Counted from the first letter of the stretch, positions 1 through 63,999 are shown. The stretch is 64,000 bases of DNA from the human T2T-CHM13v2.0 reference genome, Homo sapiens (GCF_009914755.1 NC_060927.1); one strand, 5' to 3'. The notes: a model not told the origin generated them from the sequence alone. Numbers and translations are program-made.

Positions 1-3000
1 ATAGTTTGAGGTCTTAGATTTAAGTCTTTAATCCATTTTGATTTTATTTTTGTATATGGTGAGATATAGGGGTCTAGTTTCATTCTTCCGGATATGCATA
101 TCCAATTTTCCCAGCATCATTTACTGAAGAGACTTTTTCCCCAGTGTATGTTGTTGGCACCTTTGTCAAAAATGAGTTCACTATATATTGTGTGGGTTTG
201 TTTCTGGGTTCTCTATGCTATTCCATTGGTCAATGTGTCTGTTTTTATGCCATTTCCATGCTGTCTTGGTTACTATACCTCTGCAGTATAATTTGAAGTC
301 AGGTATTGTGATTCCTCCAGTTTTGTCCTTTTGCTTAGGATAACTTTGTCTATTCTGGGTCTTTTGTTGTTCTGTATAAATTTTAGGATTGTTTTTTCTA
401 TTTATGTGAAGAATGTCATTGGAATTTGACAGAGATTGCATCGAATCTGTAGATTGCTTAAGGTAGTATAAACTTTTTAACAATATTGATTCTTCCAATC
501 TATAAACATAAAATATTTTTTCATTTTTTGGCATCTATTTACTTTCTTTTGTCAGGTTTTATAGTTTTTACTATAGAGACCTTTAGTTTCATTGGTTAAT
601 TCCTAGTTATTTAATTTTATTTGTGGCTATTATAAATGGGATTACTTTTATGATTTCTTTTTCAGATTGTTCACAGTTGGCATTTAGAAATGTTACTGAT
701 ATTTGTATGTTGATTTTGTATCCTGCTTTACTGAATTTGTTTATCAATTCTAATAGTTTTTTTGTGGAGGCTTTAGGTTTTTTAAAATATAAGATCATAT
801 CATATGAAAACAAGGAAAACTGTGTATTTTCAAATAGCTTGTCTTCAAGCTCAGCAAGTCTTTCTTCTGCTTGAGCCATTCTGCTATTTAAGGACTGTGA
901 TGCATTCTTCAGTATGCCAATTGCATTTTTCAGCTCCAGAATTTCTGCTTGATTCTTTTAAATTATTTCAATCTCTTTGTTAAATTTATATGATAGAATT
1001 CTGAATTCCTTCTCTGTGTTTTCTTGAATATCTTTTAGTTTCCTCAACACATATATTTTGAATTCTCTGTCTGGAAGGTCACATATCTGTCTCTCCAGGA
1101 TTGGTCCCTGCTGCCTTTATTAGTTCAGTCAGTGAGGTCATGTTTTCCTGGATGGTGTTGATGCTGGTAGATGTTCTTTGGTGTCTGGGCATTGAAGAGC
1201 TAGGTTTTTATTTTAGTCTTCACTGTCTGGGCTTGTTTGTACCTGTCCTTCTTAAAAAGACCTTCCAGGTATTTAAAAGGACTTGGGTGTTGTGATCTAA
1301 GTCATATCTACTTAGGGGGCACCCCAAACCCTGTAACACTGTGATTCTTATAGACTCTTAGAGGTACATCCTTGGTTGTCCTGGATAAGATCTATGAGAA
1401 TTCTCTGAATTACCAGACAGAGACTCTTGTTCTCTTCCCTTATGCTCTCCCAAACAAACAGAATCTCTGTCTCTGTTCTGAGCCAACTAAAGTTGGGGGT
1501 GGAGTGACATAAGCACCCCTGTGGCCATCACCACTATGACTGTGCTGGGTCAAACCTGTAGCTAGCACAGCACTGGGTCTCACCCAAGGCCTGCTACAAC
1601 CACTCCCTGGCTACTGCCTGTTTGCTCAAGGCCCTGGGGCTCTATATTCAGCAGGTGGTGAGGCTAGCCAGGCCTGTATCCTTCCTTTCAGGGTAGCAAG
1701 TTTTGTCAGGCCCTGGGTGGGTCCAGAGGTACCTGGCAATCAGTGACTAGGATCAAAAACCTTAGAAGTCTACCTGGTGTTCTATTGTATTGTGGCTGAG
1801 CTGGCACTCAAACCCAGAAGACACAGTCCTTCCCACTCTTCTCTCCCCTTTCCAAAGGCAGAGGAGCTTCACCCCAGGTCATGAGGAGTACTGCCAGACT
1901 ACTGCTGCCACCCCAGGCCACAAGGAGTACTGCTGATGTTTCCTTAAGGCCCCGGTGCTGTTAAGTCAGCTTGTAGTGAATGCTGCCTGGCCTGGGACTC
2001 ACCCCTCAGGGCAGTGGGCTCCCTTCTTTCCCAGGGCAGGTCCAGAGAAGCTGTCCAAAAGTCAAGTTCTTGACTTGGAGGCCCCAAGAGCTCACTTGGT
2101 GCTCTACCCCTCTGTATCTGTGCCAGTACCTAAGGTGCAAGAAAAAATCCACTTTACTTTTCTCTCTGCTTTTCTCAAGCAGGAGTTTGACCTGGTAGCA
2201 CCACAGCTGGTAATATGCTGAGTCTCACCTGAAGCCAGCAAGTCTCAGAGGCTCACCCAAGGCCCTTGAAGTAGTGCCGGGGTGTTGCGGGAAGTCAGGG
2301 ACCCTGAACAGAGGGACTGTCTGAAGCCATGGCAGAAGAACATAAATTGTGAAGATTTCATGGACATTTATTAGCTCCCCAAATTAATACTTTAATAATT
2401 TCTTATGCCTGTCTTTACTGCAATCTCTGAACATAAATTGTGAAGATTTCATGGACACTTACCACTTCACCAGTCAATACCCTCATGATTTCCTATGCCT
2501 GTCTTTAATCTCTTAATCCCGTCATCTTCGTAAGCTGAGGAGGATGTATGTCACCTTGGGACCCTGTGATGACTGTGTTAACTGCATAAATTGTTTGTAG
2601 AGCATGTGTGTTTGAACGATATGAAATCTGGGCACCTTGAAAAAAGAACAGGATAACAGCAATGTTCAGGGAACAAGAGAGATAACCTTAAACTCTGACT
2701 GCCGTTGAGCCGGGCGGAACAGAGCCATATTTCTCTTCTTTCAAAAACAAAAGGGAGAAATATCACTGAATTCTTTTTCTCAGCAAGGAACATCCCTGAG
2801 AAAGAGAATGCGTCCCTGAGGGTAGGCTTCTGAAATGGCTGCTTCAGGGGCGGCCATCTTTTACGGTCGCAGCTATAGGGATGAAATAAGCCCCAGTCTC
2901 CCGTAGTGCTCCCAGGCTTATTAGGAAGAGGAAATTCCCACCTAATAAATTTTGGTCAGACTGGTTGTCTGCTCTCAAACCCTGTCTCCTGATAAGATTG

Positions 3001-4340
3001 TTATCAATGACAATGCGTGCCGAAACTTCATTAGCAATTTTAATTTCGCCCCGGTCCTGTGGTCCTGTGATCTCGCCCTGCCTCCATTTGCCTTGTGATA
3101 TTCTATTACCTTGTGAAGCATGTGATCTCTGTGACCCACACCCTATTCGTACACTCCCTCCCCTTTTGAAAATCACTAATAAAAACTTGCTGGTTTTACA
3201 GCTCAGGGGGCATCATGGAACCTGCTGACATGTGATGTCTCCCCTGGACACCCAGCTTTAAAATTTCTCTCTTTTGTACTCTGTCCCTTTATTTCTCAGA
3301 CCGGTCGACACTTAGGGAAATAGAAAAGAACCTACATGAAATATCAGGGGTGAATTTCACCCAATATCTGGCTGAATTTCCCCTGATACCTCATGAAATA
3401 TCGGGGGTGAATTTTGCCCGATATCTGGCTGAATTTCCCAATACCGGGGTATCATTGCTGGTTTTTCAGGGCCCAAGGGCTCCTCAGTTAGCAGATGATG
3501 AATGCTGACAGGACTTGGCCCTTCCTTTCAAGACAGTGGGTTCCCTTCTGGCCCAAGGTGTGTCTAGAAATGTCATCTGGGAGCTAGGGCCTGGAATGGG
3601 GACCTCATGGCTCTGACTGGTGGCCTATTCTGCTGTGGCTGAGCTGGTATCCAAGATTTAACACAAAGTCCTCCCCACTCTTTCCTCTCCTCTCCTCTCC
3701 TCAAGTGGAAGTGCAGCCTAGGGTAAGGGGAGGAGTGATGCCAGCACTCCCATAGTTGCCCAGCTGGTGTCTCAGTAGGTCACATGCCACTCCAGTCCAC
3801 TGTCTCTGTGCCAGGTTCAGCCCTAGGACTCATCTAATAGTTGCAGCCCTTACAGCCTAGACTGCCTTTCAAGTTTACAGACTGAGAGCACTTTGGCCCT
3901 TGGTAGCAATGTTTGTGGGCACTCAAGTTCAGACTGCTGGGATTGGTGATTCCCCTCTGGCTAGTTCTGGTTTCAATGCTCCCTCCCTGCATGTGCTTCA
4001 GCTGAGTTTGGTCCAGTTGTCCTTTCTGCTCTAACAGGGCAGCACTGAATTCAATGTCTCACTATTGCTGTGCTCTCCCTCCCTTTTCCTCCAGAGCTAC
4101 CCTGGGCACCACCTGCCATTGCCAGGGATGGGAAAGGGGTGGTGATGCACTCCAGGACTGTTTTTTCTATCTCTTCAGTGCCTCTTTCAGTGATACAGAG
4201 TTAAAACCAGGTACCATGAGGGCTCATCTGATTTTCTGTTCTTATGAAGGTGTTTTTTTCTGTGTAGATAGTTGTTACATTGGTGTTCTTGAGGGAATGA
4301 TGATTGGCAGATCCTTCTATTCTACTGTCTTGCTCCTGAC
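1..4340 (-). mobile_element. Old LINE-1 (L1PB/L1MA-age): 5'UTR, partial ORF1 and ORF2 remnants, interrupted by a MER11 LTR
   Basis: Minus ORFs 181..534 ([14 protein letters not shown]...[14 protein letters not shown]) and 607..879 (ORF1-like AEERLAELEDKLFEN joined to ORF2-like SLFSYDMILY...KINIQ). About 1330-4340 resembles an old L1 5' region with internal diverged repeats. Confidence 0.85.
2283..3443 (+). mobile_element. MER11 solo LTR (HERV-K11/HML-8)
   Basis: Begins TGTTGCGGGAAGTCAGGGACCC and contains GAACATAAATTGTGAAGATTTCATGGACA twice. AATAAA near 3178. Flanked by 6-bp TSD CCGGGG (2277-2282, 3444-3449). Confidence 0.92.
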
Positions 4341-40263: not shown

Positions 40264-40705
40264 CTATACCAAGGACCCGGCCCGACTCTGGGCTGGTACC
40301 ATGACAGGTACTGCACCAATTCGTTCCAGTGTTGCGTGGCTGATGGTGTAGGAATGAGTGTGTGGAGGCCGAGGCTTCCTACTGACTGAGCCATTGCTCC
40401 TGGACATCACCTGTGGTGATGACCCTCTGTTGGCTGTCACTACCAGAGTCTTATGTTGACCCGGGACCAGATGGGTCCCATTAGCATAAATGGATGGTAT
40501 GTTGGCATTGCCTGAGTGGAAAGAGAAAGATTGGCCCAAGTCACTGAAGTGGCTGACTGACTCTGTGTTTCTATGAACTTTTGGATTGTTGCTCCAGTAT
40601 CGACTGTTGTAGGCATTGGAAGAGGTTAGTGTGTTGTTGTCCGAGGAGGAAATCTCAGTGTGAAATGCTTTGGCAGAAGAACACTTGGGTGGAAGATCAT
40701 CCTCT
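40264..40705 (-). CDS. IGSF11: IGSF11 last coding exon: cytoplasmic tail (R)[10 protein letters not shown]...[14 protein letters not shown]
   Basis: Acceptor TTTTGTTCCTTTCAG|A (phase 2), open to TAG at 40264-40266; CTX/CAR-family C-terminal class I PDZ ligand. Confidence 0.97.
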
Positions 40706-42391
40706 CTGAAAGGAACAAAATAAAGTCGTTGTTAGGATTTACTTCAAGTTAATCCTATCCTCCTACCCTGGAATCTTTCTTTTCATGTCAGGGCTTATAC
40801 ATCCAAAAAACAAATCCAGGAGAGACTACTCTATCGTGAAAGCAGGCATGGCAACCCTGGATGGCCTCAGCTTTGGTATCCATTCCCTTTGAGACAACGG
40901 TCAAGAAAATCTCTCCTCAGCTTCTCAGTCTCCAACAGTAGAAAAGGAAATCTCAGATCTCTCAGAGAATGTCTCTTCCAATACAACTTTTAAACATATA
41001 TGTAAATAACATTCACATAAATATGTTTATATATCATATAGTAAATATATAACAAATCTTGCTTTATATATATAGTAAATATTTAGTATCTTGCTTTATA
41101 TATATAGTATTCATATATAGTAAATATTTATTCACACATAAATATTTACTGTAAGTAGGAAATTAGTCCATGAAGAAATCTACTAAACTAGGTGCCATAA
41201 AATAGCTGGGAAATCAAACTATAGGTATGCAGAACTTAAAGAAATAATCAGAGTTGGCCTGATTGTATTACCCTTTGGAGTTTGAGAAATCACTGTGGGG
41301 TGCTGATGAGAGGTTTTCCTCAGTAATCTTATCCTGGGGTAGACTCTATCCCTGCATATGGCCCAAACGCTTAAGAATTACAACAGTCTAAAAGAAGTCA
41401 TTTATTTAATTTAAGATGCTAACCAATTCATTTAACATTTATTGGGTACACTTTACAATATGTTTCATGTAAAAAAGACACAAATCCTACACCTAAGAAA
41501 CCTATAGTCAATGAGGGTAGTAATCAGTGCAAGAATGTTTACGAGTCTGAAAGGTTAGGCAAGGGGCTAAAGACAACTTATGTGAGGAGGTGATGCCTGG
41601 CCTAATCTAGAATCAGATCAAGGAATTTAGTAAAGAGATGGATCAAATGAAAAGCATGGTCCAGGAAGAGAGCAGAGGCTTGAGCAAAAGCCCTGAGCAA
41701 TGGGAAAATGCAGGACAGACTGGAAGGCAAAGTGAGCTGAGAGTGATGAGAGAGAAGATACGCAGGCAAGAATCAGATCCTGTAAGGCTGTGGTATGTCT
41801 CACTATGGAGACTGGAGTCATTACAGCATTTTCAATAAAGATATGCCATGATGAAATCTGAGACTGAGCCCGAACCCTCAAATCTCCCCAGTATGACTAG
41901 AGTCACTTTTCTTTAAAGATGATGTTGGCATTGTTTTCTTAAGATGTTCATATTCTTGTCTGAACTACCTTTCTGAGCCATAGTGCTGTGGTCTGACTGT
42001 GTACAGGCACTGGTATGCTCTTACGGAGTTCCTTCTTGCTTTATGTTCACATCTATTATAAATGTCAATAGTAAACACGTTTTAGACACTACCTTTCCCA
42101 TTGTGGCAGCCACCTAACCCTGCCTACCCTGGAGACACGGAAGATAAGGAGAACTCTTCATTTGTATCCTCCTAGTTGGGCACATGCTGGACCTTTCCCT
42201 CCTTCATGATCCAGTGAATAAAGCTGAGTAGTACCATGAAGAAAAGTGATATACAAGAAAATACCATTTAGCCACTTTAATAGTCTCGGCCATCAGAGTT
42301 TTATGATTAGCAGATATATCTTAACTGACACAAATGAATAGAAGTACACAATGGCTATGCAGGACAAATTTTAAAAATCTGACATACAAAC

Positions 42392-42542
42392 CTTATTTCA
42401 TTAGGAATTTCTTCTTCTTCCTCCTCTTTATTTTTGCTTCTCCAGTAAAAGAATGCCCCTAAAATTAGTGCAATGCAAAAAATGATAATAACTGCACCAG
42501 TGCCAATGGCTCCAGCTATTAGTCCAATGTTCCTGGGCTGGG
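42392..42542 (-). CDS. IGSF11: IGSF11 transmembrane exon: (P)[49 protein letters not shown](R)
   Basis: TTTTGCAG|CC acceptor and AG|GTTTGT donor; 151 nt, phase 1 to phase 2; hydrophobic helix then basic and acidic run. Confidence 0.97.
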
Positions 42543-43339
42543 CTGCAAAATATATTTAAGATATATTTAAAGAAAAGAGAAAGAGAGAAATAGCATATAC
42601 CCATGCAACTGTAATAAGCACATAAGCTTACTAAATAATCTGCTTAAAACGTATAAAACTCTCTAAAATCTTTCATCTATATAAAGTTAAACCTCAATTA
42701 ACTTTCTATATTGTCAGTGGCTAGGACTAACACATAGTAGGCTCTGAACATATTTTGAATGAATAAACAATTAAATGACTTGCACATTTTAGGAGAACAA
42801 TACCCACATTAGGTAACAGACAGCACCAATCTAACTTGCCTGGTCTACCCTACATGAATGCTGGAAACTAGGGGATATCCTTCTACCTCAACCCAGCCAG
42901 ATCACTCCCTTTTGCAACTGGAATTCAAATATCCCAGAATTCTCAACTAAAGAGAAGTTTTCTACACTGCCATTTATAACCTAGACACCCCAAAATTTTG
43001 CAGATAAAAGAAACAAGGAAAAAACACAAGAAAGTCTTACTATACTCATAAGATTATTACCATTTTTATAATGTCTATAGCATTATACAATAAGAAACTA
43101 TCCAACTTTATTGATCCTGAGGAGAAAGATATTTTTTCATAAAGATTATCATATTGCTGAGGCTGGAAAGTATACTAAAACATTTATAAACAATTTTCAA
43201 TAATAATTAAAACCAAAACAATTTCTATTTAATCTTCAGATAACCTTAAGACAATTCAGCAGAACCCTTCATTTTCTGGTATAACAAAGATCTTAGAGTT
43301 TCAGACCCATGGTTGACATCAGAATTTCCATATGCTTAC

Positions 43340-43462
43340 GTGAAATAACCTGGAGATCCAGAAGACAGGTGCTGGTTCCAATAGCATTAGAAGCCACGCA
43401 CTGGTACAAACCTGAAGACAGGGCACTGATGTTCCGGATGGTGACTGTTCCCTGGACCTGGT
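43340..43462 (-). CDS. IGSF11: IGSF11 exon, second half of Ig C2 domain: (D)[40 protein letters not shown]
   Basis: TTTTTGTGACAG|AC acceptor and C|GTAAGC donor; 123 nt, phase 1-1; Ig GxYxC motif. Confidence 0.97.
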
Positions 43463-43935
43463 CTGTCACAAAAATAATAACCGAGTGAGGATTTGGCGGG
43501 ACTAATAGCAAAACCAAAGAAATCAGCGGAAGACCATAAAAACAGACGAACACTGGAGAGCTATCAATAAATTTCTTTTTTGTGGGGGTAGGGTGAGAAA
43601 TTATTGGTTCATGAATGTTAAAGACTAAAACTACTATATCACTTTAAAGACCTGGAACTTTGGAGCGCTGTCCTAAATCAGAACAATCTTAAAACTGAAT
43701 CTGCAGGTAAGCATGTAAAGTCCTAAATGTTAGTAGACTTCCCTGAGGAAATGGTAGCTAATACTTATCCTAGGGAATTTAAGGTAACACCAAATTCTAG
43801 TTCTGAGGAACTGCAATAACATAAAGATCATGTTAAACTTATAATAACTTTAACTTCATACCTGATGAAGAAAATATCAAATCTGTGCTCTAAGGTATAG
43901 ACTGTTACTCCCTAACAACAACAATTACAGTTGTT

Positions 43936-44397
43936 TGTGTTAGCTCAGATCCTCCAAGAAGCAGACACCAAGACAAGTGTGAGGTTGCCTGGAGGAAATA
44001 CCAGTAAAGGAAATGTGAGAGGAAGCTGCAGAAGGCAGGGAGAGCCTCAGACTTCGGTGTAGATCTCACCACTCACTGTCAAGGGGACAGGGAAGCAAGG
44101 AAGATTGGGTAGGAAGAGTCTCAGGCTGCAACACAGTTTTATGGAAGTGTCCACCAGGCAGATGGGGAGTCCCTGAGCCAAAGTCACCTGTTAAGGGAGT
44201 CCCATGCTTTGCAGAAATAGGCCTGCATTAGGCCCTAACCCTAACCCTAATTCCTCATCACTGGCTGGGAGCAGCCCAGGGGAAGCTTGGTCTTGGTGCA
44301 AAGCAGTGGTGGATCTACAGGGGAAGCAGCATGGCTTTCAGTCAATTATGTTCCCCACATCAGGAGTTTGAACAACAAATTTTCAAGGCCACTGCAC
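43936..44397. mobile_element. Old ERVL-type LTR (LTR16-like)
   Basis: AGAAGCAGACACCAAGACAAG...AGTCTCAGGCTGCA...CTGGCTGGGAGCAGCCC motifs; subfamily uncertain. Confidence 0.55.
44233..44250 (-). repeat. Short interstitial telomeric repeat (TTAGGG)3
   Basis: CCCTAACCCTAACCCTAA on the plus strand. Confidence 0.85.
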
Positions 44398-47300
44398 TGG
44401 TATTGCCAAGAAATGCTTCAATAGTTCACATTTTAGTAATTCATCAACATTAGCATAGTTTGATTATTTATTCCTATAAAATACAAATGACTTACAGGAA
44501 TAACTTTAAAAAGTTAATAGTTATTAGTATGTTCCAGGCATTGGGTAAGCTTTTATATGTATTATTTCAATCTTTACAATTACCCTGAGGTATTTTTATT
44601 ATTAATCTCATTGAACAGTCAAGGAGACTGAAGCTTTAGATGTTTAATAAGATTACACAGCTGGTTGTTAGGAAATTCAATTGGATGAAGGGGCTGTCTC
44701 ACCTCTAAGCTCTAGGCTTCACTGCCCTCCTTATGCAGGAAAGAGAATACATTCTGTCATCTCAACCATTCAAAATAGCTGCAAATTTAGAAGTAAATGG
44801 AAAAGCCTCCTAACAGGACAAGTAAAAAAATATTCTGACACAAAGTCCAAGTATGCCTGGGGCAACACCTAGAGCTATCCCCATCCTGGGTTACTTATTT
44901 TTACATGGAACTAAGATTTAGTTAACTGGTTTCTGCTGGCAATCATCATCTCTATCTAGATCAAAGGCAGAAGCAGACACGAGGAGTCAGCAAAAGCAGA
45001 TCTGAGTAAAGTGTGCAGCATTTATTAATTCATTCATTTAATAAATAAATATTTATTGAGCATCTTCCTTTGTGCTTGGTTTTCTGAGGATGGTGATAAA
45101 ATAATGAACAAGACAGGCCCAGTCCCTTACCCTAATGAGACAAGTATACACACAATTACAATATATGGAATAAGTGCCAGCCAGTGCTAGAGAACAGAGG
45201 GGGATAGGGGAGCATACAGGAGGGACATCTAATGAGGGATTGAGAAATCAAATAGACTACAGGGGAGGAGAAAATAATTGCTGTCTCAGAAATTGCCAGG
45301 CACACAGAAAGGTGCTAAATAAAAGTGATCAATAAATAAAAGTGCTGCCTACTCTTTAGCGTCTGTTGTGTACCACATACACTGCACTAACAGCATTAAA
45401 TATGCCTCATTTAATGTTCGTAACAAGCTTATGTTCTATATTCCCTACTTTTCAAAGATAACTCAAAAAAGCTATGAAATTTGTCCAAGATCACAGAGTA
45501 CACAAGTAGCAGCAATCTATAAAATGAGGTTTGTCCAAGTCCAAAGCTTATACTCACCATACATACACTTGGCACTCTAGTAAGGCATTTAAAACCACAT
45601 TATTCTAGAGGATGCACCTATAGAATATTTCCTGACCAATAAATGTTCCAATGCTGTTAGTAATATAAACTAAGCAATGTGCCTATCTCCCTCTTCATGT
45701 ACACATGTACTAATATCATCAACGCAAGAAAACCATAATCTCTGGGCAATCAACCACATAATTTGTGTTCCTGGGGTTTTTGTTGTTGTTGTTGGTAGTG
45801 GTGGTGGTGGGTTTTCCCCTAAGCTCTGGAATTCTAAAAATTTGATGAGCTCACACCAAACTGGTAATTTTGTTGACATTTCCAGAGACAATTTGGGAAA
45901 TTTTAAACAGCTCCTCTACGCAGCATTCTGGCATGTAGAAAGAGGTAAACTGTAAAGACTCTTGCTTTGAAAAGTTATTTTTAAAAGGTGAAGTCAATGT
46001 CTTCCTTTTGTCTCTATAGATGCCAATACTATGACCATGTTTCTGTAAGATAATATTATTAAATGAAGTTGATATACCATGGTAGATTTAACTTGGAATA
46101 TAATCAGGGAAGGAGACAGGTACATTGATAACAGAAGATTAACCAGAACAAAACAGCCCTGTTTATGTGACAAGGCAAAATAGAGAAGAGAGCAACTCCA
46201 GCAAACAGCAGACTGTTTGCAGCCACAAAGCACATAGCCCTTCCCAAAACTAGCAGGCTAATTCTGCCATCTGTCATTTCACTTGGTCTGCTCAGGCAGG
46301 GAAGTATTTTTCTGAAATAGAGAATAAATATATTTTTTAGCTTCTTTTAAAGAATAGGGAAAGTTCAATGGCATGAAACTACATAGTTTGGGGAACTCAA
46401 AGGACCTCACACTCCACTGTTTTAGTTCATAGCAACTATGCACTTGGTTCACCAGCTACGTATCTGGCACAGAAGGCCCTTCTGAATTAGAAAAAAACAA
46501 ATGTTAGTGTACATTTCCAGTTCCATCCTTTCTCCTTAGTTCCAGAATGCTGCCTCTGGCTGCCTAGTAGCTGATGTATCTGCTAAGAGCATGTTCCAGT
46601 TAGACAGCCTAAGTTTGAGTCTATTCTACCTACTACTGGTCATATGGTCTTGAGTGTGTTCCCTGTTCTTCATCTATATTTTAGTTTCCTCATCTGTAAT
46701 ATGGAGCTACCAAAGTGCCTACAAACTGTAGATTACTGTGAGGACTAAATGAAAGGTTAGTATAGTATATGGTAATGTTTCCATGTGGGAATTCCTTCCT
46801 GGTACTTCTAGGGGAACTGATATATTTTTCCGAATCATAAAAAAATTCAGTCAAGAAATATGAAAAATGTCTAGTGTCTCCCAATGGATATTAATTCCCA
46901 ATAGATATTGATCTTCAGGATTTGAAGAGTTAGATAAGAATTCTTAAATCATAATTATATATTTTCATATGACTTATATATTTTAAATAATGAGTAACTA
47001 TAATAAACTGAACATTTCTTATATAAAAGTTTCAGAAGTATTCTGTAGGCTATATAATAATGGATGTATACTTGTTATTTGAATGAATATGTTACATCAA
47101 AATTATATATTTCAATAATATGTAAAAATGATCCTAACCTGAAAAAGATATTTAATTTTTTAAAAATTGTAAATAAAGGGAAATACAAAATAAATGTCAA
47201 AAATCTGTGGAAAAACTTAAAGATGACATCACAAATACTTAATATCAAACTCTATTAAAGATAAATTTAAAATATAACATTGGACACAGAAAATTTTATT

Positions 47301-49177
47301 TCATTTTGTGTTGATGCTGGCTGAATTAAGGCATAGATGGAGAAGGGACAGGGAAAGAACCTGTTCCCATTAATAGAATTTCCAAGGGCACCGTCCAGAT
47401 GGATGTTAGGATACATCCTGCTTCACAGCAGCTCAGTGCCTTTAGACAATGATAAAAATATTTTGTCTGTTTGCCCTGATTTTGGTTTGGCATTGAAACA
47501 GATATTGCTTTTGCCAAATCAGATTTTAGATTCATTTCTGATGTCATGTTAGTATACTGCAGAGCAACATTCTCACCCTCTTCTATTTGTGTTTCTGCCA
47601 TTCAAGTATTCACAAGGAGCTGAAGCTTATAGCAAATATTCAAACTTGTGAAAATACCAATGAACATTACTCAGCATTATTTGAATAATGTAGTGTGTAT
47701 AAATACATTAGTATTTCTTTGCAAGAATGATTCATCATTAGCAACATACAAGAAGGCCATGACCACACACTTATCACATGGCAAAAGCTACAAGCAAGAC
47801 CAACTAATTAGATTTTGACTGCTTCTCTCCTACCCACTTCTGTTGACTCTGCTTTTAGGTTTAACTGGACATCAAGATTCTTCTGAATCAGTATATCTCT
47901 ATGTTGACTGTTGCTCTTTAATTCTCAAAGAATGGCACATGGTGTTCAAGAAATGTTACCATTATCATTATTTCAATCCCCATATAGAGGTCCCAGGAGA
48001 CCACTAACTCACTGCTTTCCTCAAGCAAACTTCTACAAATTTCTCTTCTGAGTTAAGATGGTTACTGTTGATTCAGTGCCCCACAACAGGAATCTGAGTT
48101 AACTCTGACTCTTCTGAGTTTAAACATCTAATCGAGCCCCATATATTGTAATATTTTCCTCAATCTCTCTTGAATCTTACCCTCCCCCACTGTGCCTTCT
48201 CCACCCCTGTCACTAGGGACTTAGTTCAGGTCCTTGTCATTTCTTGATGGGGCTATTAACAAAGCCTTCCATTTATGACTGGCTGCCAATCTTTCAGCCT
48301 GATTACTGACACAGTTTCTAAAATGCGTATCTGGTGATCTCTTGTTTATAAATGTCAGTGCATCTCTACAGTTAAAGATAACATCCAAACTCCTTGCATA
48401 TTATATAAAGCCTTTCACAATCTGGACTTCACCTTTTCCAGCTCCTCTCTGGTCAAATCCCCACGAACCTTTATGTCAGCTTCACAGATCTTCTCACTAA
48501 AAATGTCAAACTTTTACACTTGCAAGATTTTGCAAGCATAGTTCCCTGTATTTATAATACCCACTTTTAACCAGTAAAACTTCTATCCATCATTTAAGAA
48601 CCTTTTCCTGCTTGGGAATCCTTTTCCCTACAAAGTTCTTCCTGGACTCTTCAGGAACAAGTAATATTTCTATCATTTAAATTTTATAGCACTGCATACA
48701 TTTTCATAGCATTAACATGTAGTGCTATGATTTTCTCTTTATATCTGTCTCCTCCATTAGGCAGTGAGCTCTAGGATGGAGATATGTTTCCTTGTATTTC
48801 TCCACCTGCCCCAACACTCAACTCTGAAGCAGTTGCAGAGTAAGGTGTATGTTTATGTGTGTGTGCACACACACACACATATATGTAAAAATGAATGAAT
48901 ATATACACAAATTAATACAGTTATAACTGTTGACATTTAATCTTTTAAAAAAGAGGAAGTACTGAACACTATATGGGGTTTGCTTCATGTCAGAGGGCAA
49001 AAAAAAAGGGAGAAAAAACTCAACTTCAGTTAGAATAACATCTTGATGAAGGAGAAATAAGCACTTGTTTATTCAGCACTTTTAGTGGGTGAAAATTTTC
49101 TGCTCCCCATGAAAAAAATTATGGAACCACTCTTACTGGGAGGGGAAACAGCAGTGTCAGTTCAAGAAACAGAATCA

Positions 49178-49465
49178 GGCTGCGTGTGGTGGCTCACACC
49201 TATAGTCCCAGCACTTTGGGAGGCCGACGCATTTGAGACCAGCTTGGTCAGCATAGCAAGGCCCCATCAGGACACTAAGGCAGGAAGATAACTTGAGCCC
49301 AGGAGTGTGAGGTTACAGTAAGCTGTCATCATGCCACTGCACTCCAGCCTGGGTGGGTAACAGAGCAAGACTTTGTCTCTAAAAAATGAGAGAAGAGAGA
49401 GAGAGAGAACAAAGAGGAGAGAGGAGAGAGAAGAGATAGAAAGTGAGAGAGAGGAGAGGAGACAC

Positions 49466-49498
<33 letters not shown>
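49178..49498 (+). mobile_element. Internally deleted AluJ-like element followed by a ~110-nt (GA)n tract
   Basis: GGCTCACACCTATAGTCCCAGCACTTTGGGAGG...CACTCCAGCCTGGG, then purine repeat 49388-49498. Confidence 0.88.
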
Positions 49499-50596
49499 AT
49501 ATCAAGATTCCTGAGTGTTACAACCACGCCAAAAGAATTTTAGTCCTTCCTATCAGTTTTGGGCAAACCTGGTCTCTTCTAGGAGCCTCAGTCTTCTCCC
49601 TTGTAACATGAGAGTGGGACCATGGTGATATTTAAGATACTCTCCTGCTATAGCTATGATCTCTAAAGATCTACACAGAGTTCACAGGCAAGCACGAGAG
49701 ATAATCATCTCTCTTCACTGTATTAAATTATGAAAGGATGAGGAAAACAGAGGATTTCTTACAAACCATGAAAGAAAAACGTATAATCTAGTTTCAGAAA
49801 ATGTTAACCATTAATAATGAAAATAAATACACTATACTTTATATTTACCAAGATAAAAGAATGGATAGAAAATGAATTGCCATTATTTGCATATAATTTT
49901 TAAAAACACATTTTAAAGTTCTCTGTGCATCTTTAAAGTGTGAAGGTTATTCTCCCCTTTAAGTCAGAAGGGAGGTGTTTTTTTTCTAATTATCCCTCAG
50001 CTTTCCTTTCTGAGTTCAAGTTTTACTGACCATTGTGAGAAACAACTGTGCTTATCTCCATCCTTGGTTGCCAAGAAGCTGCAGGACTTGGAGAGTGGGT
50101 GTCATTCCAGGAAGGAATTCCACTCCATGGCTTGATATGCAGCTCCTGTGAGCTAGCTCCAGCCCTGGATTTTCAATTGCTGCAGGACAAATCCCGTGTT
50201 GCCTCACATCTCCAATCATCTCACTCACCAGTACAGGGCCCAGCCGCCCGACCACACTCACTGTATGGACAATCATCCCTTTCCTGTTTTGCTCATCCCT
50301 TCATCTTCCCAAAACCTCTAGAGCTGTTGGCAGAAACAAATAGAAAACATAACCTACAGCTTAGAGAAACTATAGAACAATCCAGGTGAAGCGTTCACAT
50401 GAGGGAAACAGGAAAGGAATATCACCATGAAGAAAAGTTAACTACACAACAAACAGGAGGATTAGCATACAAAGAGCATAAAGTTATGTGAAGGTCACTA
50501 TAAAATTAGTATGCTTAAAATTATTAAACATATACAGAATAGTCACCATAATAAAAGAGGATGATGCCATGAAGAGACAAAGGCAACATAGAAATA

Positions 50597-50765
50597 GCCA
50601 GGTGCTGTGGCTCACATCTGTAATCCCAGCTACTCGGGAGGCTGAGGTAGGAGGATTGCTTAAGGGCCAGGAGTTTGAAGTTGCAGTGAGCAGTGATTGT
50701 GCCACTGCACTGCAGCCTGGATGACAGAACGAGACTCCATCTCTTAAAAGAAGGAAAGAAAAGAA
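50597..50765 (+). mobile_element. Alu monomer (FAM/FRAM-like) within an old L1ME-type remnant (about 50260-51972, resuming 58119-59950)
   Basis: Single-arm Alu sequence; flanks translate to decayed L1 ORF1 (RLPADFSTET) and ORF2 (RPFSLVITDANIL). Confidence 0.75.
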
Positions 50766-52221
50766 GAAAATAAATTCAAAACTCAATGGATAAGCTGAAC
50801 AGCCATCAGAGTAGAAGAGAGAACAGGTGATCTGGAAAAATAAAAAACAAAAACAAAAAAAAAACCAGAATGCCACACAGAAAGGTAAAGAAGGTAAAGA
50901 CATTTACGGATAAGCAAAGGATTAAAAAAACATGGTTTACAGAATTAAAAGACTAAACCAAGAGCTAACAGGAAACAATAAAGAAAGAAGAGAAAAGGCT
51001 ATATTCAAAAATATAAGGACAGAGATTTTTCCAGAAGTGACAAAAAATACAATCTCTCAATTTAAGAAGCACCACAAGCCCATAGCAGGATTAATAAAAA
51101 TTAACACATACCTAAAATATATTCTAGGATCTACAGAACACCAAGTACAAAACAACTGCAAAAAGCAAAGGAAGGAAAACACAAATGCCTACAGACTACC
51201 AGCAGATTTCTCAACAGAAACAAGAAAGGTGGGAAGAAAATGAAACATTTTCAAATTCTTGAGAAACAATAACTGATAACCTAGCATTTATACTCACTAA
51301 ACTGCATTAAAGAGTGTAGGGAAAAAAGATATTTTCAGAAAAACAAACATGAGAACAACAACACTCATAGATCATCAATGTAATACCTACTGAAGGGTGT
51401 GTGTACTTTACTATAAGAAAATGGAACACAGAAAAAATGACTGTGATGAAAGAAGCAATGGAGCAAAAAAAATGGCAAACTTGTGGGTAAATCTAAATAA
51501 AACCGTAATGTATACGTAAACGATGATGAAAATGGGGATGATTAATATGGAGAAAAGTTAAAAATAAGGTGGAACAAATATACTAAAGCCAAGAAAATAA
51601 CTAAAATGCAGACAATACAAACACAGAAATTAAACATATCAGACAGAAGCTGAGAGTTATGGTGGACTGAATGAAAAGGTCCAAAAAATGGCTAATAGGA
51701 GAGAAGAGAAAGAACTGATGAGACGAAATATTCACAAGGATTAGGGAAAATGGAAGAAAGACAGCTTTCTATGGTCCTATTATTTGGATAGAGAGTAGAG
51801 TTTTTTTTTACTTCTAGACTACATTAAATCAAGTATGCATTTGAGAACTTTAAGAATAAGCACGAAGAGAAATACACTTATAACTCTGAAAGTAGAGGAG
51901 AAAAAATATTATAAAGAATATTCAAATAATCAGTAGAAGATATGGGAAGAGGGGGCATAAAGAAAAAAGCTTAATAAATAGAAAACCGGGGAGGAGCCAA
52001 GATGGCCGAATAGGAACAGCTCCGGTCTACAGCTCCCAGCGTGAGCGACGCAGAAGACGGGTGATGTCTGCATTTCCATCTGAGGTACCGGGTTCATCTC
52101 ACTAGGGAGTGCCAGACAGTGGGCGCAGGCCAGTGGGTGCGCGCACCGTGCGCAAGCCGAAGCAGGGCGAGGCATTGCCTCACCTGGGAAGCGCAAGGGG
52201 TCAGGGAGTTCCCTTTCCGAG

Positions 52222-52437
52222 TCAAAGAAAGGGGTGACGGACGCACCTGGAAAATCGGGTCACTCCCACCCGAATATGGCGCTTTTCAGACCGGCTTAAA
52301 AAACGGCGCACCACGAGACTATATCCCACACCTGGCTCGGAGGGTCCTACGCCCACGGAGTCTCGCTGATTGCTAGCACAGCAGTCTGAGATCAAACTGC
52401 AAGGCGGCAGCGAGGCTGGGGGAGGGGCGCCCACCAT
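52222..52437 (-). CDS. ORF0: L1 ORF0, intact 71 aa (MVGAPPPASLPPCSLISDCC...RHPFL)
   Basis: ATG at 52437 in GCAATGG context, open to the stop at 52222-52224; both internal donors present. Expression at this locus not shown. Confidence 0.8.
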   Translation of the reverse strand: MVGAPPPASLPPCSLISDCCASNQRDSVGVGPSEPGVGYSLVVRRFLSRSEKRHIRVGVTRFSRCVRHPFL

Positions 52438-52892
52438 TGCCCAGGCTTGCTTAGGTAAACAAAGCAGCCAAGAAGCTCCAACTGGGTGGAGCCCACCACA
52501 GCTCAAGGAGGCCTGCCTGCCTCTGTAGGCTCCACCTCTGGGGGCAGGGCACAGACAAACAAAAAGACAGCAGTAACCTCTGCACACTTAAATGTCCCTG
52601 TCTGACAGCTTTGAAGAGAGCAGTGGTTCTCCCAGCACGCAGCTGGAGATCTGAGAACGGGCAGACTGCCTCCTCAAGTGGGTCCCTGACCCCTGACCCC
52701 CGAGCAGCCTAACTGGGAGGCACCCCCCAGCAGGGGCACAGTGACACCTCACACTGCAGGGTATTCCAACAGACCTGCAGCTGAGGGTCCTGTCTGTTAG
52801 AAGGAAAACTAACAAACAGAAAGGACATCCACACCGAAAACCCATCTGTACATCACCATCATCAAAGACCAAAAGTAGATAAAACCACAAAG

Positions 52893-53909
52893 ATGGGGAA
52901 AAAACAGAACAGAAAAACTGGAAACTCTAAAATGCAGAGCGCCTCTCCTCCTCCAAAGGAACGCAGTTCCTCACCAGCAATGGAACAAAGCTGGATGGAG
53001 AAAGATTTTGACGAGCTGAGAGAAGAAGGCTTCAGACGATCAAATTACTCTGAGCTACGGGAGGACATTCAAACCAAAGGCAAAGAAGTTGAAAACTTTG
53101 AAAAAAATTTAGAAGAATGTATAACTAGAATAACCAATACAGAGAAGTGCTTAAAGGAGCTGATGGAGCTGAAAACCAAGGCTCGAGAACTACGTGAAGA
53201 ATGCAGAAGCCTCAGGAGCCGATGCGATCAACTGGAAGAAAGGGTATCAGCAATGGAAGATGAAATGAATGAAATGAAGTGAGAAGGGAAGTTTAGAGAA
53301 AAAAGAATAAAAAGAAATGAGCAAAGCCTCCAAGAAATATGGGACTATGTGAAAAGACCAAATCTACGTCTGATTGGTGTACCTGAAAGTGATGCGGAGA
53401 ATGGAACCAAGTTGGAAAACACTCTGCAGGATATTATCCAGGAGAACTTCCCCAATCTAGCAAGGCAGGCCAATGTTCAGATTCAGGAAATACAGAGAAC
53501 GCCACAAAGATACTCCTCGAGAAGAGCAACTCCAAGACACATAATTGTCAGATTCACCAAAGTTGAAATGAAGGAAAAAATGTTAAGGGCAGCCAGAGAG
53601 AAAGGTCGGGTTACCCTCAAAGGGAAGCCCATCAGACTAACAGCGGATCTCTCGGCAGAAACCCTACAAGCCAGAAGAGAGTGGGGGCCGATATTCAACA
53701 TTCTTAAAGAAAAGAATTTTCAACCCAGAATTTCATATCCAGCCAAACTAAGCTTCATAAGTGAAGGAGAAATAAAATACTTTACAGACAAGCAAATGCT
53801 GAGAGATTTTGTCACCACCAAGCCTGCCCTAAAAGAGCTCCTGAAGGAAGCGCTAAACATGGAAAGGAACAACCGGTAGCAGCCGCTGCAAAATCATGCC
53901 AAAATGTAA
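52893..53909 (+). pseudogene. L1 ORF1p, disrupted
   Basis: MGKKQNRKTGNSK...; premature TGA at 53280-53282 (CpG decay of CGA) and TAG at 53877-53879. Confidence 0.95.
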
Positions 53910-53972
53910 AGACCATCGAGACTAGGAAGAAACTGCATCAACTAACGAGCAAAATCACCAGCTAACATCATA

Positions 53973-57799
<3,827 letters not shown>

Positions 57800-58013
57800 A
57801 CAATGAGATCACCTGGACACATGAAGGGGAATACCACACTCTGGGGACTGTGGTGGGGTGGGGGGAGGGGGGAGGGATAGCATTGGGAGATATACCTAAG
57901 GCTAGATGACGAGTTAGTGGGTGCAGAGCACCAGCATGGCACATGTATACATATGTAACTAACCTGCACAATGTGCACATGTACCCTAAAACTTAAAGTA
58001 TAAAAAAAAAAAA

Positions 58014-58103
58014 CAATAATGTGTCAGACATGATACAAGATGATTTAAATAAAAGACCTCTTTAAATATCAAAAAATAAATAAATTAAATAAATAAATAA
58101 ATA
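58014..58103 (+). other. L1 3' transduction (57 nt) plus second A-rich tail
   Basis: Non-L1 sequence with its own AATAAA (58048-58053) lies between the L1 poly(A) and the 3' TSD. Confidence 0.85.
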
Positions 58104-63843: not shown

Positions 63844-63999
63844 CCTGAGTAGCTGTTGGAGGTAGTTTGAGGGTATTGTCTAACTTCTCCCAAAGGTAAG
63901 TTGGTCGAGGAATGCCTTCCTCTGAGCTACAGAGCAGGATGACATCGCTGCCAATATCCTGGGATCCTTGGATTTGGCAGTGTGGGGCAGAAGGGGGAA
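63844..63999 (-). CDS. IGSF11: IGSF11 exon, first half of Ig C2 domain: (V)[51 protein letters not shown]
   Basis: Donor CAGG|GTATGT at 63844/63843; G+AC gives Asp with the next exon. The acceptor is cut by the window edge (64000 is probably the G of AG). Confidence 0.95.

What the first reader, a model, noticed from the sequence alone, without database searches (positions are those of the whole stretch)
40264..52437. Intronic L1 ORF0 is phase-matched to IGSF11 exons: predicted in-frame ORF0-IGSF11 fusion proteins
Seen: the L1 lies antisense to IGSF11, so ORF0 runs in the gene's direction, 8.9 kb upstream of the 43462 acceptor. ORF0 is intact although ORF1 and ORF2 are broken. Donor SD1 (CAG|GTGTGG, last base 52332) is phase 1. 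Joined to 43462 it regenerates GAC (Asp), giving 35 ORF0 aa + 238 IGSF11 aa = 273 aa with TM helix and PDZ tail but no signal peptide or V domain; it is also in frame with 42542. Donor SD2 (CAG|GTGCGT, last base 52247) is phase 2 and in frame with 40705, giving a 210-aa TM-less tail protein. Known: young L1 antisense promoters drive chimeric transcripts (e.g. L1-MET), ORF0 forms exon fusions through these donors, and IGSF11 is a reported VISTA ligand and PSD-95 binder. Inference: L1 demethylation in germ line, pluripotent or tumour cells could produce truncated, possibly dominant-negative IGSF11 or junction neo-peptides. Phase matches can arise by chance.
Basis: partly seen in the sequence, partly recalled or inferred. 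Interest (0 to 1): 0.85.

Follow-up and report, generated by a model that had tools for sequence, protein, structure and literature searches.

The report
Known L1 antisense promoter inside IGSF11
An old, coding-dead L1 retrotransposon in an IGSF11 intron points its antisense promoter and small ORF0 reading frame along the gene; the frame arithmetic is right, but the L1-IGSF11 hybrid RNA is already catalogued, the frame match is expected by chance, and no fusion protein has been shown.

Summary
Observation confirmed. A full-length L1PA2 (+ strand, 51988-58013) lies antisense in IGSF11 intron 4. ORF0 (52437-52222, minus strand) is an intact 71-aa frame. SD1 (last base 52332, phase 1) is in frame with acceptors 43462 and 42542. 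SD2 (last base 52247, phase 2) is in frame with 40705. The products are 273, 232 and 210 aa.

None of this is unusual:
- 30 of 30 closest ORF0 copies in this genome have the same frame and donors.
- All four IGSF11 introns visible here are phase 1 or 2, so a match was guaranteed.
- ORF0 is a small target for mutation.

The chimeric RNA is already in print. Criscione 2016 Table S1 lists capped EST DA736218 (L1PA2 to IGSF11, NT2 cells), flagged as previously reported and detected in H1-ESC PacBio data.

By coordinate arithmetic that EST starts near 52398, about 39 nt downstream of the ORF0 ATG. It is also absent from that paper's table of ORFs of 100 aa or more. It therefore gives no support for a fusion protein.

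Verdict: a known L1 antisense alternative promoter. An ORF0-IGSF11 protein remains an unproven possibility, probably from a minority of transcripts. Low interest.

The parts
51988..58013 (+). Full-length L1 (annotated L1PA2 in hg19 by Criscione 2016 Table S1), antisense to IGSF11, in intron 4; short A-tail at 58002-58013
   Evidence: 5' end GGGGAGGAGCCAAGATGG read. 3' UTR and A-run read. Pfam Tnp_22_trimer, Exo_endo_phos and RVT_1 on its ORF pieces. Subfamily name. No target-site duplication of 7 nt or more found.
51988..52892 (+). L1 5' UTR (905 nt) carrying the bidirectional promoter; CpG observed/expected 0.48 against 0.25 in the L1 body
52222..52437 (-). ORF0, intact, 71 aa (P0001); start context GGCAATGG (G at -3, G at +4); the only ATG on this strand between 52828 and 52175
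   Evidence: The published ORF0 reverse primer (gene-specific 22 nt) matches 52222-52243 exactly: 1 match, 0 expected.
52326..52334 (-). SD1 donor CAG|GTGTGG, last exon base 52332, phase 1, 7 of 9 consensus positions
52241..52249 (-). SD2 donor CAG|GTGCGT, last exon base 52247, phase 2, 8 of 9 consensus positions
52178..52186 (-). Third consensus donor CAG|GTGAGG, last exon base 52184, downstream of the ORF0 stop. Its use would give stand-alone ORF0 and no fusion.
52398..52398 (-). Inferred 5' end of capped EST DA736218 (hg19 chr3:118633577), about 39 nt downstream of the ORF0 ATG, L1 position about 411
   Evidence: Coordinates. Offset taken from the IGSF11 3' end (hg19 118619478 = window 38300). 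Inference that assumes collinearity of the two assemblies.
43340..43462 (-). IGSF11 exon 5 (123 nt, phase 1 at both ends): second half of the C2 Ig domain, including the GLYQC motif
   Evidence: hub annotation
42392..42542 (-). IGSF11 exon 6 (151 nt): transmembrane helix and juxtamembrane acidic run
40264..40705 (-). Coding part of the IGSF11 last exon: cytoplasmic tail ending ..GSLV, then stop
52893..57799 (+). Remains of L1 ORF1 and ORF2, interrupted by stops and a frame change (pieces of 129, 103, 122, 141 and 847 aa)

Best explanation
A full-length but coding-dead L1PA2 sits in IGSF11 intron 4, in the opposite orientation to the gene. It is present in both hg19 and CHM13. Its 5' UTR keeps the L1 antisense promoter. 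When the element is unmethylated (embryonal carcinoma cells, embryonic stem cells), that promoter acts as a cryptic intragenic alternative promoter. It produces low-abundance RNAs made of L1 5' UTR antisense sequence spliced to IGSF11 exons 5-7. What these RNAs can encode depends on where transcription starts and which donor is used. Starts near L1 position 400, the reported main site and the apparent start of the one known EST, lie downstream of the ORF0 ATG and give essentially non-coding RNAs. Starts upstream of position 450 combined with SD1>exon 5 or 6, or SD2>exon 7, would encode 273-, 232- or 210-aa ORF0-IGSF11 chimeras. Other combinations end early or give free ORF0. The frame compatibility comes from ORF0's fixed donor phases (1 and 2) meeting the phase-1 and phase-2 introns of this Ig-superfamily gene, not from selection. 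Shown here: the sequence anatomy and the frames. Shown in print: the chimeric EST and the ESC long-read isoform. Inferred: the start-site position, low abundance, and lack of protein.
For: Anatomy and frames. L1 identity: Pfam domains on the ORF pieces. ORF0 identity: exact match to a published ORF0 primer and start codon at L1 position about 450, against 451 for the middle base in Garza 2023 numbering. [quoted passage not shown] The same paper states that the PacBio data are H1-ESC and confirm 124 of 988 transcripts. Start site: 'primary L1 ASP at ~400 bp', preceded by a YY1 site at 448-453. Starts at +300 to +500 and +150 to +250 are reported by Pinson 2022. The EST 5' end maps to about 52398. 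From there, 0 of 9 splice combinations give a first-ATG ORF above 24 aa, consistent with the EST's absence from the table of ORFs of 100 aa or more. Generic nature: 2,322 first-look ORF0-like candidates in the genome; all 40 scored are at least 98% identical. In 30 of 30 fetched loci ORF0 is intact with both donors. Only 30 of 648 single substitutions break ORF0, so the chance of it staying intact is 0.82-0.90 at 1-2% divergence, against 0.03-0.16 for a target the size of ORF2. Mechanistic precedent: loss of DNA methylation switches on L1HS, L1PA2 and L1PA3 antisense fusion transcripts of neuronal genes (Jonsson 2019). L1 silencing in iPSC removes about 100 L1-promoted isoforms (Adami 2025).
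Against: The start-site mapping is arithmetic across two assemblies. I could not see the EST sequence or its exon blocks, so the donor and acceptor it used are unknown. Net length of the whole gene differs by about 36 bp between hg19 and CHM13; 39 extra bp or more in CHM13 within the first 14 kb would put the ATG inside the EST. ESTs from a single L1PA2 scatter by more than 100 bp in their 5' ends (AGMO and ALG1L rows), so some IGSF11 chimeras probably do include the ATG. ORF0's ATG is the first AUG for any start between L1 positions about 451 and 840 and has a strong context, so such RNAs would be translated by ordinary scanning. In-frame isoforms end at the native stop and would escape nonsense-mediated decay, which could enrich them. 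The 'previously identified' flag may come from the Denli 2015 list of 57 ORF0-exon fusions, which I could not read. If so, an ORF0-IGSF11 fusion transcript has been observed directly.
Confidence: 0.75

Rival explanations
1. A meaningful share of L1-driven transcripts starts upstream of the ORF0 ATG and uses the in-frame joins. Cells with demethylated L1s then make ORF0-IGSF11 proteins lacking the signal peptide and V domain. These would keep the membrane helix and PDZ-binding tail (273 or 232 aa), or the tail only (210 aa), and would act as dominant-negatives or as junction neo-antigens.
For: Frames are correct. ORF0's ATG is the first AUG over about 390 nt of possible start sites and has G at -3 and +4. 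ORF0-exon fusions exist as a class: 57 of about 3,200 loci according to Criscione's summary of Denli 2015; reviews note that several involve neuronal genes. Protein increases were reported for some L1-fusion genes after DNMT1 loss. The locus is transcribed in NT2 and H1 cells. In-frame isoforms would escape nonsense-mediated decay (inference).
Against: The only documented EST appears to start 39 nt downstream of the ATG and has no ATG-initiated ORF of 100 aa or more in the authors' own table. The reported main antisense start (about 400) is downstream of the ATG (about 450). Only 42 predicted peptides in that survey contain ORF0 fragments, among 546 coding-potential ESTs of 2,015. A third, equally good donor lies after the ORF0 stop. 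The product would carry half an Ig domain and no signal peptide, so folding and membrane insertion are doubtful. Four literature searches linking IGSF11 with L1 or TE terms found no main-text report.
Confidence: 0.1
2. The main consequence is transcriptional interference rather than a product. When the L1 is active, its two promoters fire inside intron 4: the sense promoter runs against IGSF11 and the antisense promoter runs with it. This would lower or truncate full-length IGSF11 output, as proposed for L1-MET.
For: The bidirectional promoter is retained, with a CpG-richer 5' UTR. Criscione's background text describes L1-MET lowering MET protein and LCT13 silencing TFPI-2. Host/nested-gene work cites intronic L1s as a cause of premature polyadenylation and notes greater IGSF11 isoform diversity in testis.
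Against: No data at this locus. Pinson 2022, judging by its title and abstract, finds that L1 chimeric transcripts follow the expression of their host locus rather than opposing it (listing).
Confidence: 0.1
3. The element is functionally inert. The single EST and the ESC isoform are promoter noise from one of thousands of young L1s, with no RNA- or protein-level consequence.
For: One EST only. In that survey, 609 of 988 such transcripts rest on a single EST, which the authors read as low expression. There are thousands of equivalent ORF0 copies.
Against: Two independent sources, a capped EST and H1 long reads, plus an earlier report. This largely overlaps the best explanation and differs only in degree.
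Confidence: 0.05

Closest known systems
L1 antisense-promoter chimeric transcripts (Speek 2001; catalogue of Criscione et al. 2016, 988 genes)
   Same: Start inside the 5' UTR of a young L1 on the antisense strand, spliced to exons of the host gene in the gene's own direction, seen in embryonal carcinoma and ES cells. This very locus is a row in the catalogue.
   Different: Nothing structural. This is one of the catalogue's members, supported by a single EST.
ORF0 and ORF0-exon fusion proteins (Denli et al. 2015, Cell 163:583; seen only through citing papers)
   Same: A 71-aa antisense ORF starting at L1 position about 450, with two internal donors that can join downstream exons.
   Different: No evidence here that the fusion is made. 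The known EST seems to lack the ATG. Whether IGSF11 is among the 57 published fusions could not be checked.
L1-MET (L1 antisense promoter in MET intron 2)
   Same: An intronic, antisense-oriented young L1 giving a 5'-truncated host transcript on demethylation (background text).
   Different: L1-MET is abundant, studied in many tumours and has reported effects. L1-IGSF11 has a catalogue entry only.
L1PA2 alternative promoters of ELAPOR2 and PPP1R1C in hiPSC (Adami et al. 2025); L1PA2-driven LINC01876 (Garza et al. 2023)
   Same: L1PA2 antisense promoter used in pluripotent or neural progenitor cells to make hominoid-specific isoforms.
   Different: Those were validated by CRISPRi and direct long reads. 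In LINC01876 the ORF0 start codon is lost in humans, whereas here it is intact.

Membership tests
LINE-1, full-length primate-specific element (L1PA2) | About 6 kb with 5' UTR, ORF1, ORF2, 3' UTR and A-tail | tested here: met
   51988-58013. Canonical 5' end read. 3' UTR and A-run read. ORF layout.
LINE-1, full-length primate-specific element (L1PA2) | ORF1p and ORF2p (endonuclease and reverse transcriptase) domains | tested here: met
   Pfam Tnp_22_trimer 9.6e-11, Exo_endo_phos 6.7e-10, RVT_1 6.7e-47 on the ORF pieces. The frames are interrupted.
LINE-1, full-length primate-specific element (L1PA2) | Subfamily assignment to L1PA2 | tested here: inconclusive
   Named L1PA2 in Criscione Table S1. 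The 3' UTR reads GAG at the position I recall as diagnostic for non-Ta elements (the diagnostic is recalled).
LINE-1, full-length primate-specific element (L1PA2) | Target-site duplication | tested here: not met
   No exact direct repeat of 7 nt or more between the 60-nt flanks. A short or degenerate duplication is not excluded.
L1 ORF0 | Antisense ORF of about 70-71 aa starting near L1 position 450-452 | tested here: met
   71 aa. ATG at L1 position 450 of this copy. Literature: 70 aa, 71 aa, start-codon base at 451.
L1 ORF0 | Two splice donors inside the ORF | tested here: met
   Exactly two GT sites with at least 7 of 9 consensus matches lie inside the ORF. 'Two splice donor sites' is stated. 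The published positions were not seen.
L1 ORF0 | Sequence identity with the ORF0 used experimentally | tested here: met
   The gene-specific 22 nt of primer OU306 (Honda 2020) match 52222-52243 with 0 mismatches. The ORF is 98-99% identical to the other 39 of the 40 copies scored in the genome. Pfam holds no model: 0 families.
L1 antisense-promoter chimeric transcript | 5' end antisense within the L1 5' UTR, spliced to a host-gene exon | tested here: met
   From print, not raw reads: DA736218 row and the paper's selection rules. The 5' end maps to L1 position about 411.
ORF0-exon fusion protein | Donor and acceptor in the same phase, reading into the host frame | tested here: met
   3 of 6 joins are in frame.
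ORF0-exon fusion protein | Transcript contains the ORF0 start codon | tested here: inconclusive
   The one known EST maps to start near 52398, downstream of 52437, and is absent from the table of ORFs of 100 aa or more. The mapping is indirect and other start sites are likely.
ORF0-exon fusion protein | Observed junction reads and protein | not testable with these tools
   No read archives, CAGE, Ribo-seq or proteomes are on hand.

The most novel reading that the evidence does not exclude
In pluripotent, germ-line and hypomethylated tumour cells, a fraction of L1PA2-initiated RNAs starts upstream of 52437 and uses SD1>43462. This would yield a hominoid-specific 273-aa protein made of ORF0 (35 aa), half an Ig domain, the IGSF11 membrane helix and the PDZ-binding tail. 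Lacking a signal peptide, it would have to insert through its single helix as a signal anchor, with about 79 residues ahead of it and basic residues (R, K) just after the helix followed by an acidic run. It could compete for PDZ scaffolds without binding VISTA. It could also supply a tumour-restricted junction epitope in a gene already classed as cancer-testis antigen CT119. A side effect would be that 3'-biased RNA counts report 'IGSF11' where no ligand-competent protein exists.
Probability: 0.1. Interest if true: 0.6.

Novelty: already known. Interest (0 to 1): 0.22.

Why it matters
IGSF11 is studied as a VISTA ligand and immune-checkpoint target, as a synaptic adhesion molecule, and as cancer-testis antigen CT119 (the VISTA and PSD-95 links are recalled, not checked here).

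An L1-driven, 5'-truncated transcript carries only exons 5-7. Expression measured from the 3' end, as in 3'-tag single-cell RNA-seq or 3' arrays, could therefore overstate ligand-competent IGSF11 in ES, embryonal carcinoma or demethylated tumour cells. That is a practical caution rather than a discovery.

The mechanism, the class of ORF0 fusions and this locus's chimeric RNA are all in print. The frame match that made the finding look special is what the gene's intron phases guarantee.

Tried and rejected
1. Reading Denli 2015 by DOI and by PubMed id, Matlik 2006, Speek 2001 and Macia 2011: none is held. I could not find out which earlier source first reported L1-IGSF11, nor see the published donor positions.

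2. C-GATE supplements: the tool answered that it was closed. I made no further supplement requests. The supplements of Jonsson 2019, Pinson 2022, Lanciano 2024 and Adami 2025, which may list this locus, were therefore not seen.

4. Literature searches for IGSF11 together with each of the following:
- LINE-1 and antisense promoter: 0 papers.
- Transposable element and chimeric: 4 papers, 3 on fish pigment patterns and 1 immune-biomarker review, none on L1.
- LINE-1: 3 papers, unrelated by title.
- Retrotransposon: 16 hold the terms, 14 listed, none on this L1 by title; I opened one, PMC11694760, which concerns IGSF11-AS1.
- Alternative promoter: 7 hold the terms, 6 listed, none on this L1 by title.
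- Hypomethylation and testis: 5 papers.
These searches cover main texts only, so 'not in print' holds only for main texts of the held library.

5. Target-site duplication search: nothing of 7 nt or more.

6. I considered and rejected the idea that an intact ORF0 signals selection at this locus. The mutational target-size calculation and the 30 of 30 intact copies explain it. That sample is the best-scoring copies and is therefore biased towards intact ones.

7. I considered guessing the EST's splice pattern from its likely length. The candidate lengths of 423-845 nt do not discriminate.


Full report
**What is in the sequence**

On the + strand, a full-length L1 runs from 51988 (GGGGAGGAGCCAAGATGG...) to a short A-run ending at 58013. 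It lies inside the 20-kb IGSF11 intron between exon 4 (63844-63999) and exon 5 (43340-43462). IGSF11 is on the minus strand, so the element is antisense to the gene.

Pfam finds the L1 ORF1 trimerisation domain, the endonuclease and the reverse transcriptase on its open pieces. ORF1 stops after 129 aa, and ORF2 is split into pieces of 122, 141 and 847 aa with a change of frame.

On the minus strand, an ATG at 52437 opens a 71-aa frame that ends at 52222. The gene-specific 22 nt of a published ORF0 reverse primer (Honda 2020, PMC7746726, passages) match 52222-52243 exactly. That is 1 match in the window against 0 expected. The start codon sits at L1 position about 450, in line with position 451 given for its middle base by Garza 2023 (PMC10619931, passages). 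This is ORF0.

All of it is right.
- SD1 (CAG|GTGTGG) ends at 52332, 106 nt into the frame (phase 1).
- SD2 (CAG|GTGCGT) ends at 52247, 191 nt in (phase 2).
- Of the 6 donor x acceptor joins, 3 read into the IGSF11 frame: SD1>43462 (273 aa), SD1>42542 (232 aa) and SD2>40705 (210 aa).
- The other 3 joins stop at aa 61, 88 and 101.
- The stated junction peptides are reproduced.
- Exon 4 ends in G, so the native Asp codon is regenerated.
- The 273-aa product has one hydrophobic segment (about aa 80-113), about 79 residues ahead of it, no hydrophobic N-terminus, and ends in GSLV.

**Is it more than chance? No, for three reasons**

1. The donor phases are a fixed property of ORF0. A search of the window's own assembly gave 2,322 first-look candidates. 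All 40 that were scored are at least 98% identical over the full 216 nt. In all 30 loci fetched (29 others plus this one), the 71-aa frame is intact and both donors are present at the same places. One copy has GTGCGG at SD1. This sample is the closest copies and is biased towards intact ones. The literature gives about 3,000-3,200 ORF0 loci.

2. The gene's intron phases guarantee a match. Exons 4 and 5 are 156 and 123 nt, both multiples of three, and exon 6 is 151 nt. Introns 3, 4 and 5 are therefore phase 1 and intron 6 is phase 2. An antisense ORF0-bearing L1 in any of these four introns would be in frame with the next exon through SD1 or SD2. The match to 42542 is an automatic consequence of the match to 43462. 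From general knowledge (recalled), roughly half of human introns are phase 1 or 2, and Ig-domain exons are typically bounded by phase-1 introns.

3. ORF0 intact while ORF1 and ORF2 are broken is a matter of target size. Only 30 of 648 possible single substitutions break ORF0. At 1-2% divergence the chance of staying intact is 0.82-0.90. The same per-substitution risk gives 0.38-0.62 for a frame the length of ORF1 and 0.03-0.16 for one the length of ORF2, before counting indels.

**What is already in print**

Criscione et al. 2016 (BMC Genomics 17:463, PMC4908685) was read as passages, section 7 and Table S1. [quoted passage not shown]

The paper explains several points:
[quoted passage not shown] It matched 45 of 89 published transcripts and 37 of 228 C-GATE entries; 911 of 988 transcripts were new.
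- The PacBio data are H1 embryonic stem cell isoforms, which confirmed 124 of 988 transcripts.

That prediction is correct, and it is already catalogued. I could not determine which earlier source listed IGSF11. Denli 2015, Matlik 2006, Speek 2001 and Macia 2011 are not held, and supplement access closed.

**Does the documented RNA encode a fusion?**

Probably not.

I took the IGSF11 3' end as the common anchor (hg19 118619478 = window 38300). With that offset the EST spans window positions about 40350 to about 52398. Its 5' end is then at L1 position about 411, some 39 nt downstream of the ORF0 ATG. This is coordinate arithmetic across assemblies. The whole 245-kb gene differs by only about 36 bp net between them, but I could not check the local alignment.

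Two independent points agree with this placement:
- The authors place the 'primary L1 ASP at ~400 bp', just after a YY1 site at 448-453 that overlaps the ORF0 start.
- The EST and the gene name occur only in Table S1 among the 10 supplementary files. They are not in Table S3, which lists ESTs with an ATG-initiated ORF of at least 100 aa. That table covers 546 of 2,015 ESTs, of which 42 peptides contain ORF0 fragments.

From a start at 52398, none of 9 donor x acceptor combinations gives a first-ATG ORF longer than 24 aa. From a start at 52500, the three in-frame joins give 273, 232 and 210 aa.

If the EST did include the ATG, its absence from Table S3 would imply an out-of-frame join or use of a third donor. 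That donor is CAG|GTGAGG with last base 52184. It lies after the ORF0 stop and matches the consensus as well as SD2 does.

**Against my reading**

- ESTs from a single L1PA2 differ by more than 100 bp in their 5' ends (AGMO and ALG1L rows). Antisense starts are reported from +300 to +500 and from +150 to +250 (Pinson 2022, PMC9396940, passages). Some L1-IGSF11 RNAs therefore very likely include the ATG.
- That ATG is the only one on the strand between 52828 and 52175 and has G at -3 and +4, so scanning ribosomes would use it.
- In-frame products end at the native stop in the last exon and should escape nonsense-mediated decay, unlike the out-of-frame joins (inference).
- ORF0-exon fusions are real as a class. 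Protein increases were reported for some L1-fusion genes after DNMT1 loss in neural progenitors (Jonsson 2019, PMC6639357, passages).
- If IGSF11 is one of Denli's 57 fusions, the fusion transcript has been seen directly.

**Most likely mechanism**

The L1PA2 antisense promoter acts as a cryptic intragenic alternative promoter of IGSF11 when the element is unmethylated. It yields low-level 5'-truncated chimeric RNAs carrying exons 5-7.

Most of these RNAs start near L1 position 400 and are effectively non-coding. A minority could encode the ORF0-IGSF11 chimeras. Such a protein would carry only the second half of the C2 Ig domain and no signal peptide, so its fate is uncertain.

Comparable, validated cases are the L1PA2 promoters of ELAPOR2 and PPP1R1C in iPSC (Adami 2025, PMC12791003, passages) and LINC01876.

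**Novelty and score**

The kind is well known, and this locus is already a catalogue entry. What remains open is whether a protein is made, which only transcript-start, ribosome and peptide data can settle.

The practical point worth keeping concerns measurement. 3'-biased IGSF11 counts in ES, embryonal carcinoma or demethylated tumour cells may reflect L1-driven truncated RNA rather than ligand-competent IGSF11. IGSF11 is treated as cancer-testis antigen CT119 and as an immune-checkpoint ligand (PMC11522268, passages). Interest is low.

Literature searches for a main-text report linking IGSF11 and L1 found none. Supplements of the relevant genome-wide studies could not be seen and may list this locus.

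Noticed in passing
L003 (G000:C3:121726781-121726996, + strand; equivalent to window position about 144781-144996, outside the window): A second young L1 5' UTR lies inside IGSF11, about 92 kb from this one. Its ORF0 is intact and differs at 2 of 216 bases. It points opposite to the gene, so its antisense promoter would drive transcripts antisense to IGSF11.
   Followed up: partly
window 52178-52186, minus strand: A third consensus donor, CAG|GTGAGG (8 of 9 positions), sits 38 nt after the ORF0 stop. Its use would give stand-alone ORF0 followed by IGSF11 exons as 3' UTR, a likely target of nonsense-mediated decay.
   Followed up: partly
window 42458-42460, minus strand: The annotated alternative exon 42392-42458 uses an internal acceptor (ttttag|G) that shortens exon 6 by 84 nt in frame. 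This removes 28 residues covering most of the membrane helix, giving a predicted helix-less IGSF11 isoform. SD1 would also be in frame with this acceptor (hub annotation).
   Followed up: partly
window 43412-43462, minus strand: The annotated alternative short form of exon 5 is 51 nt and uses the donor CAG|GTTTGT. It also keeps the frame.
   Followed up: no
window 51988-52892 against 52893-58012: The L1 5' UTR keeps 36 CpGs (observed/expected 0.48, GC 58%). The body has observed/expected 0.25 and GC 40%. This fits a promoter still open to control by methylation.
   Followed up: no
window 51930-52175 and 52588-52845, minus strand: Two further mechanical ORFs lie on the antisense strand of the L1 5' UTR: 81 aa, running out into the intron, and 85 aa. 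There is no evidence that either is used.
   Followed up: no
window 51930-51990 and 58005-58070: No exact target-site duplication of 7 nt or more flanks the L1. NCBI's repeat mask starts 19 nt before the canonical L1 5' end and ends 10 nt after the A-run (hub annotation).
   Followed up: partly
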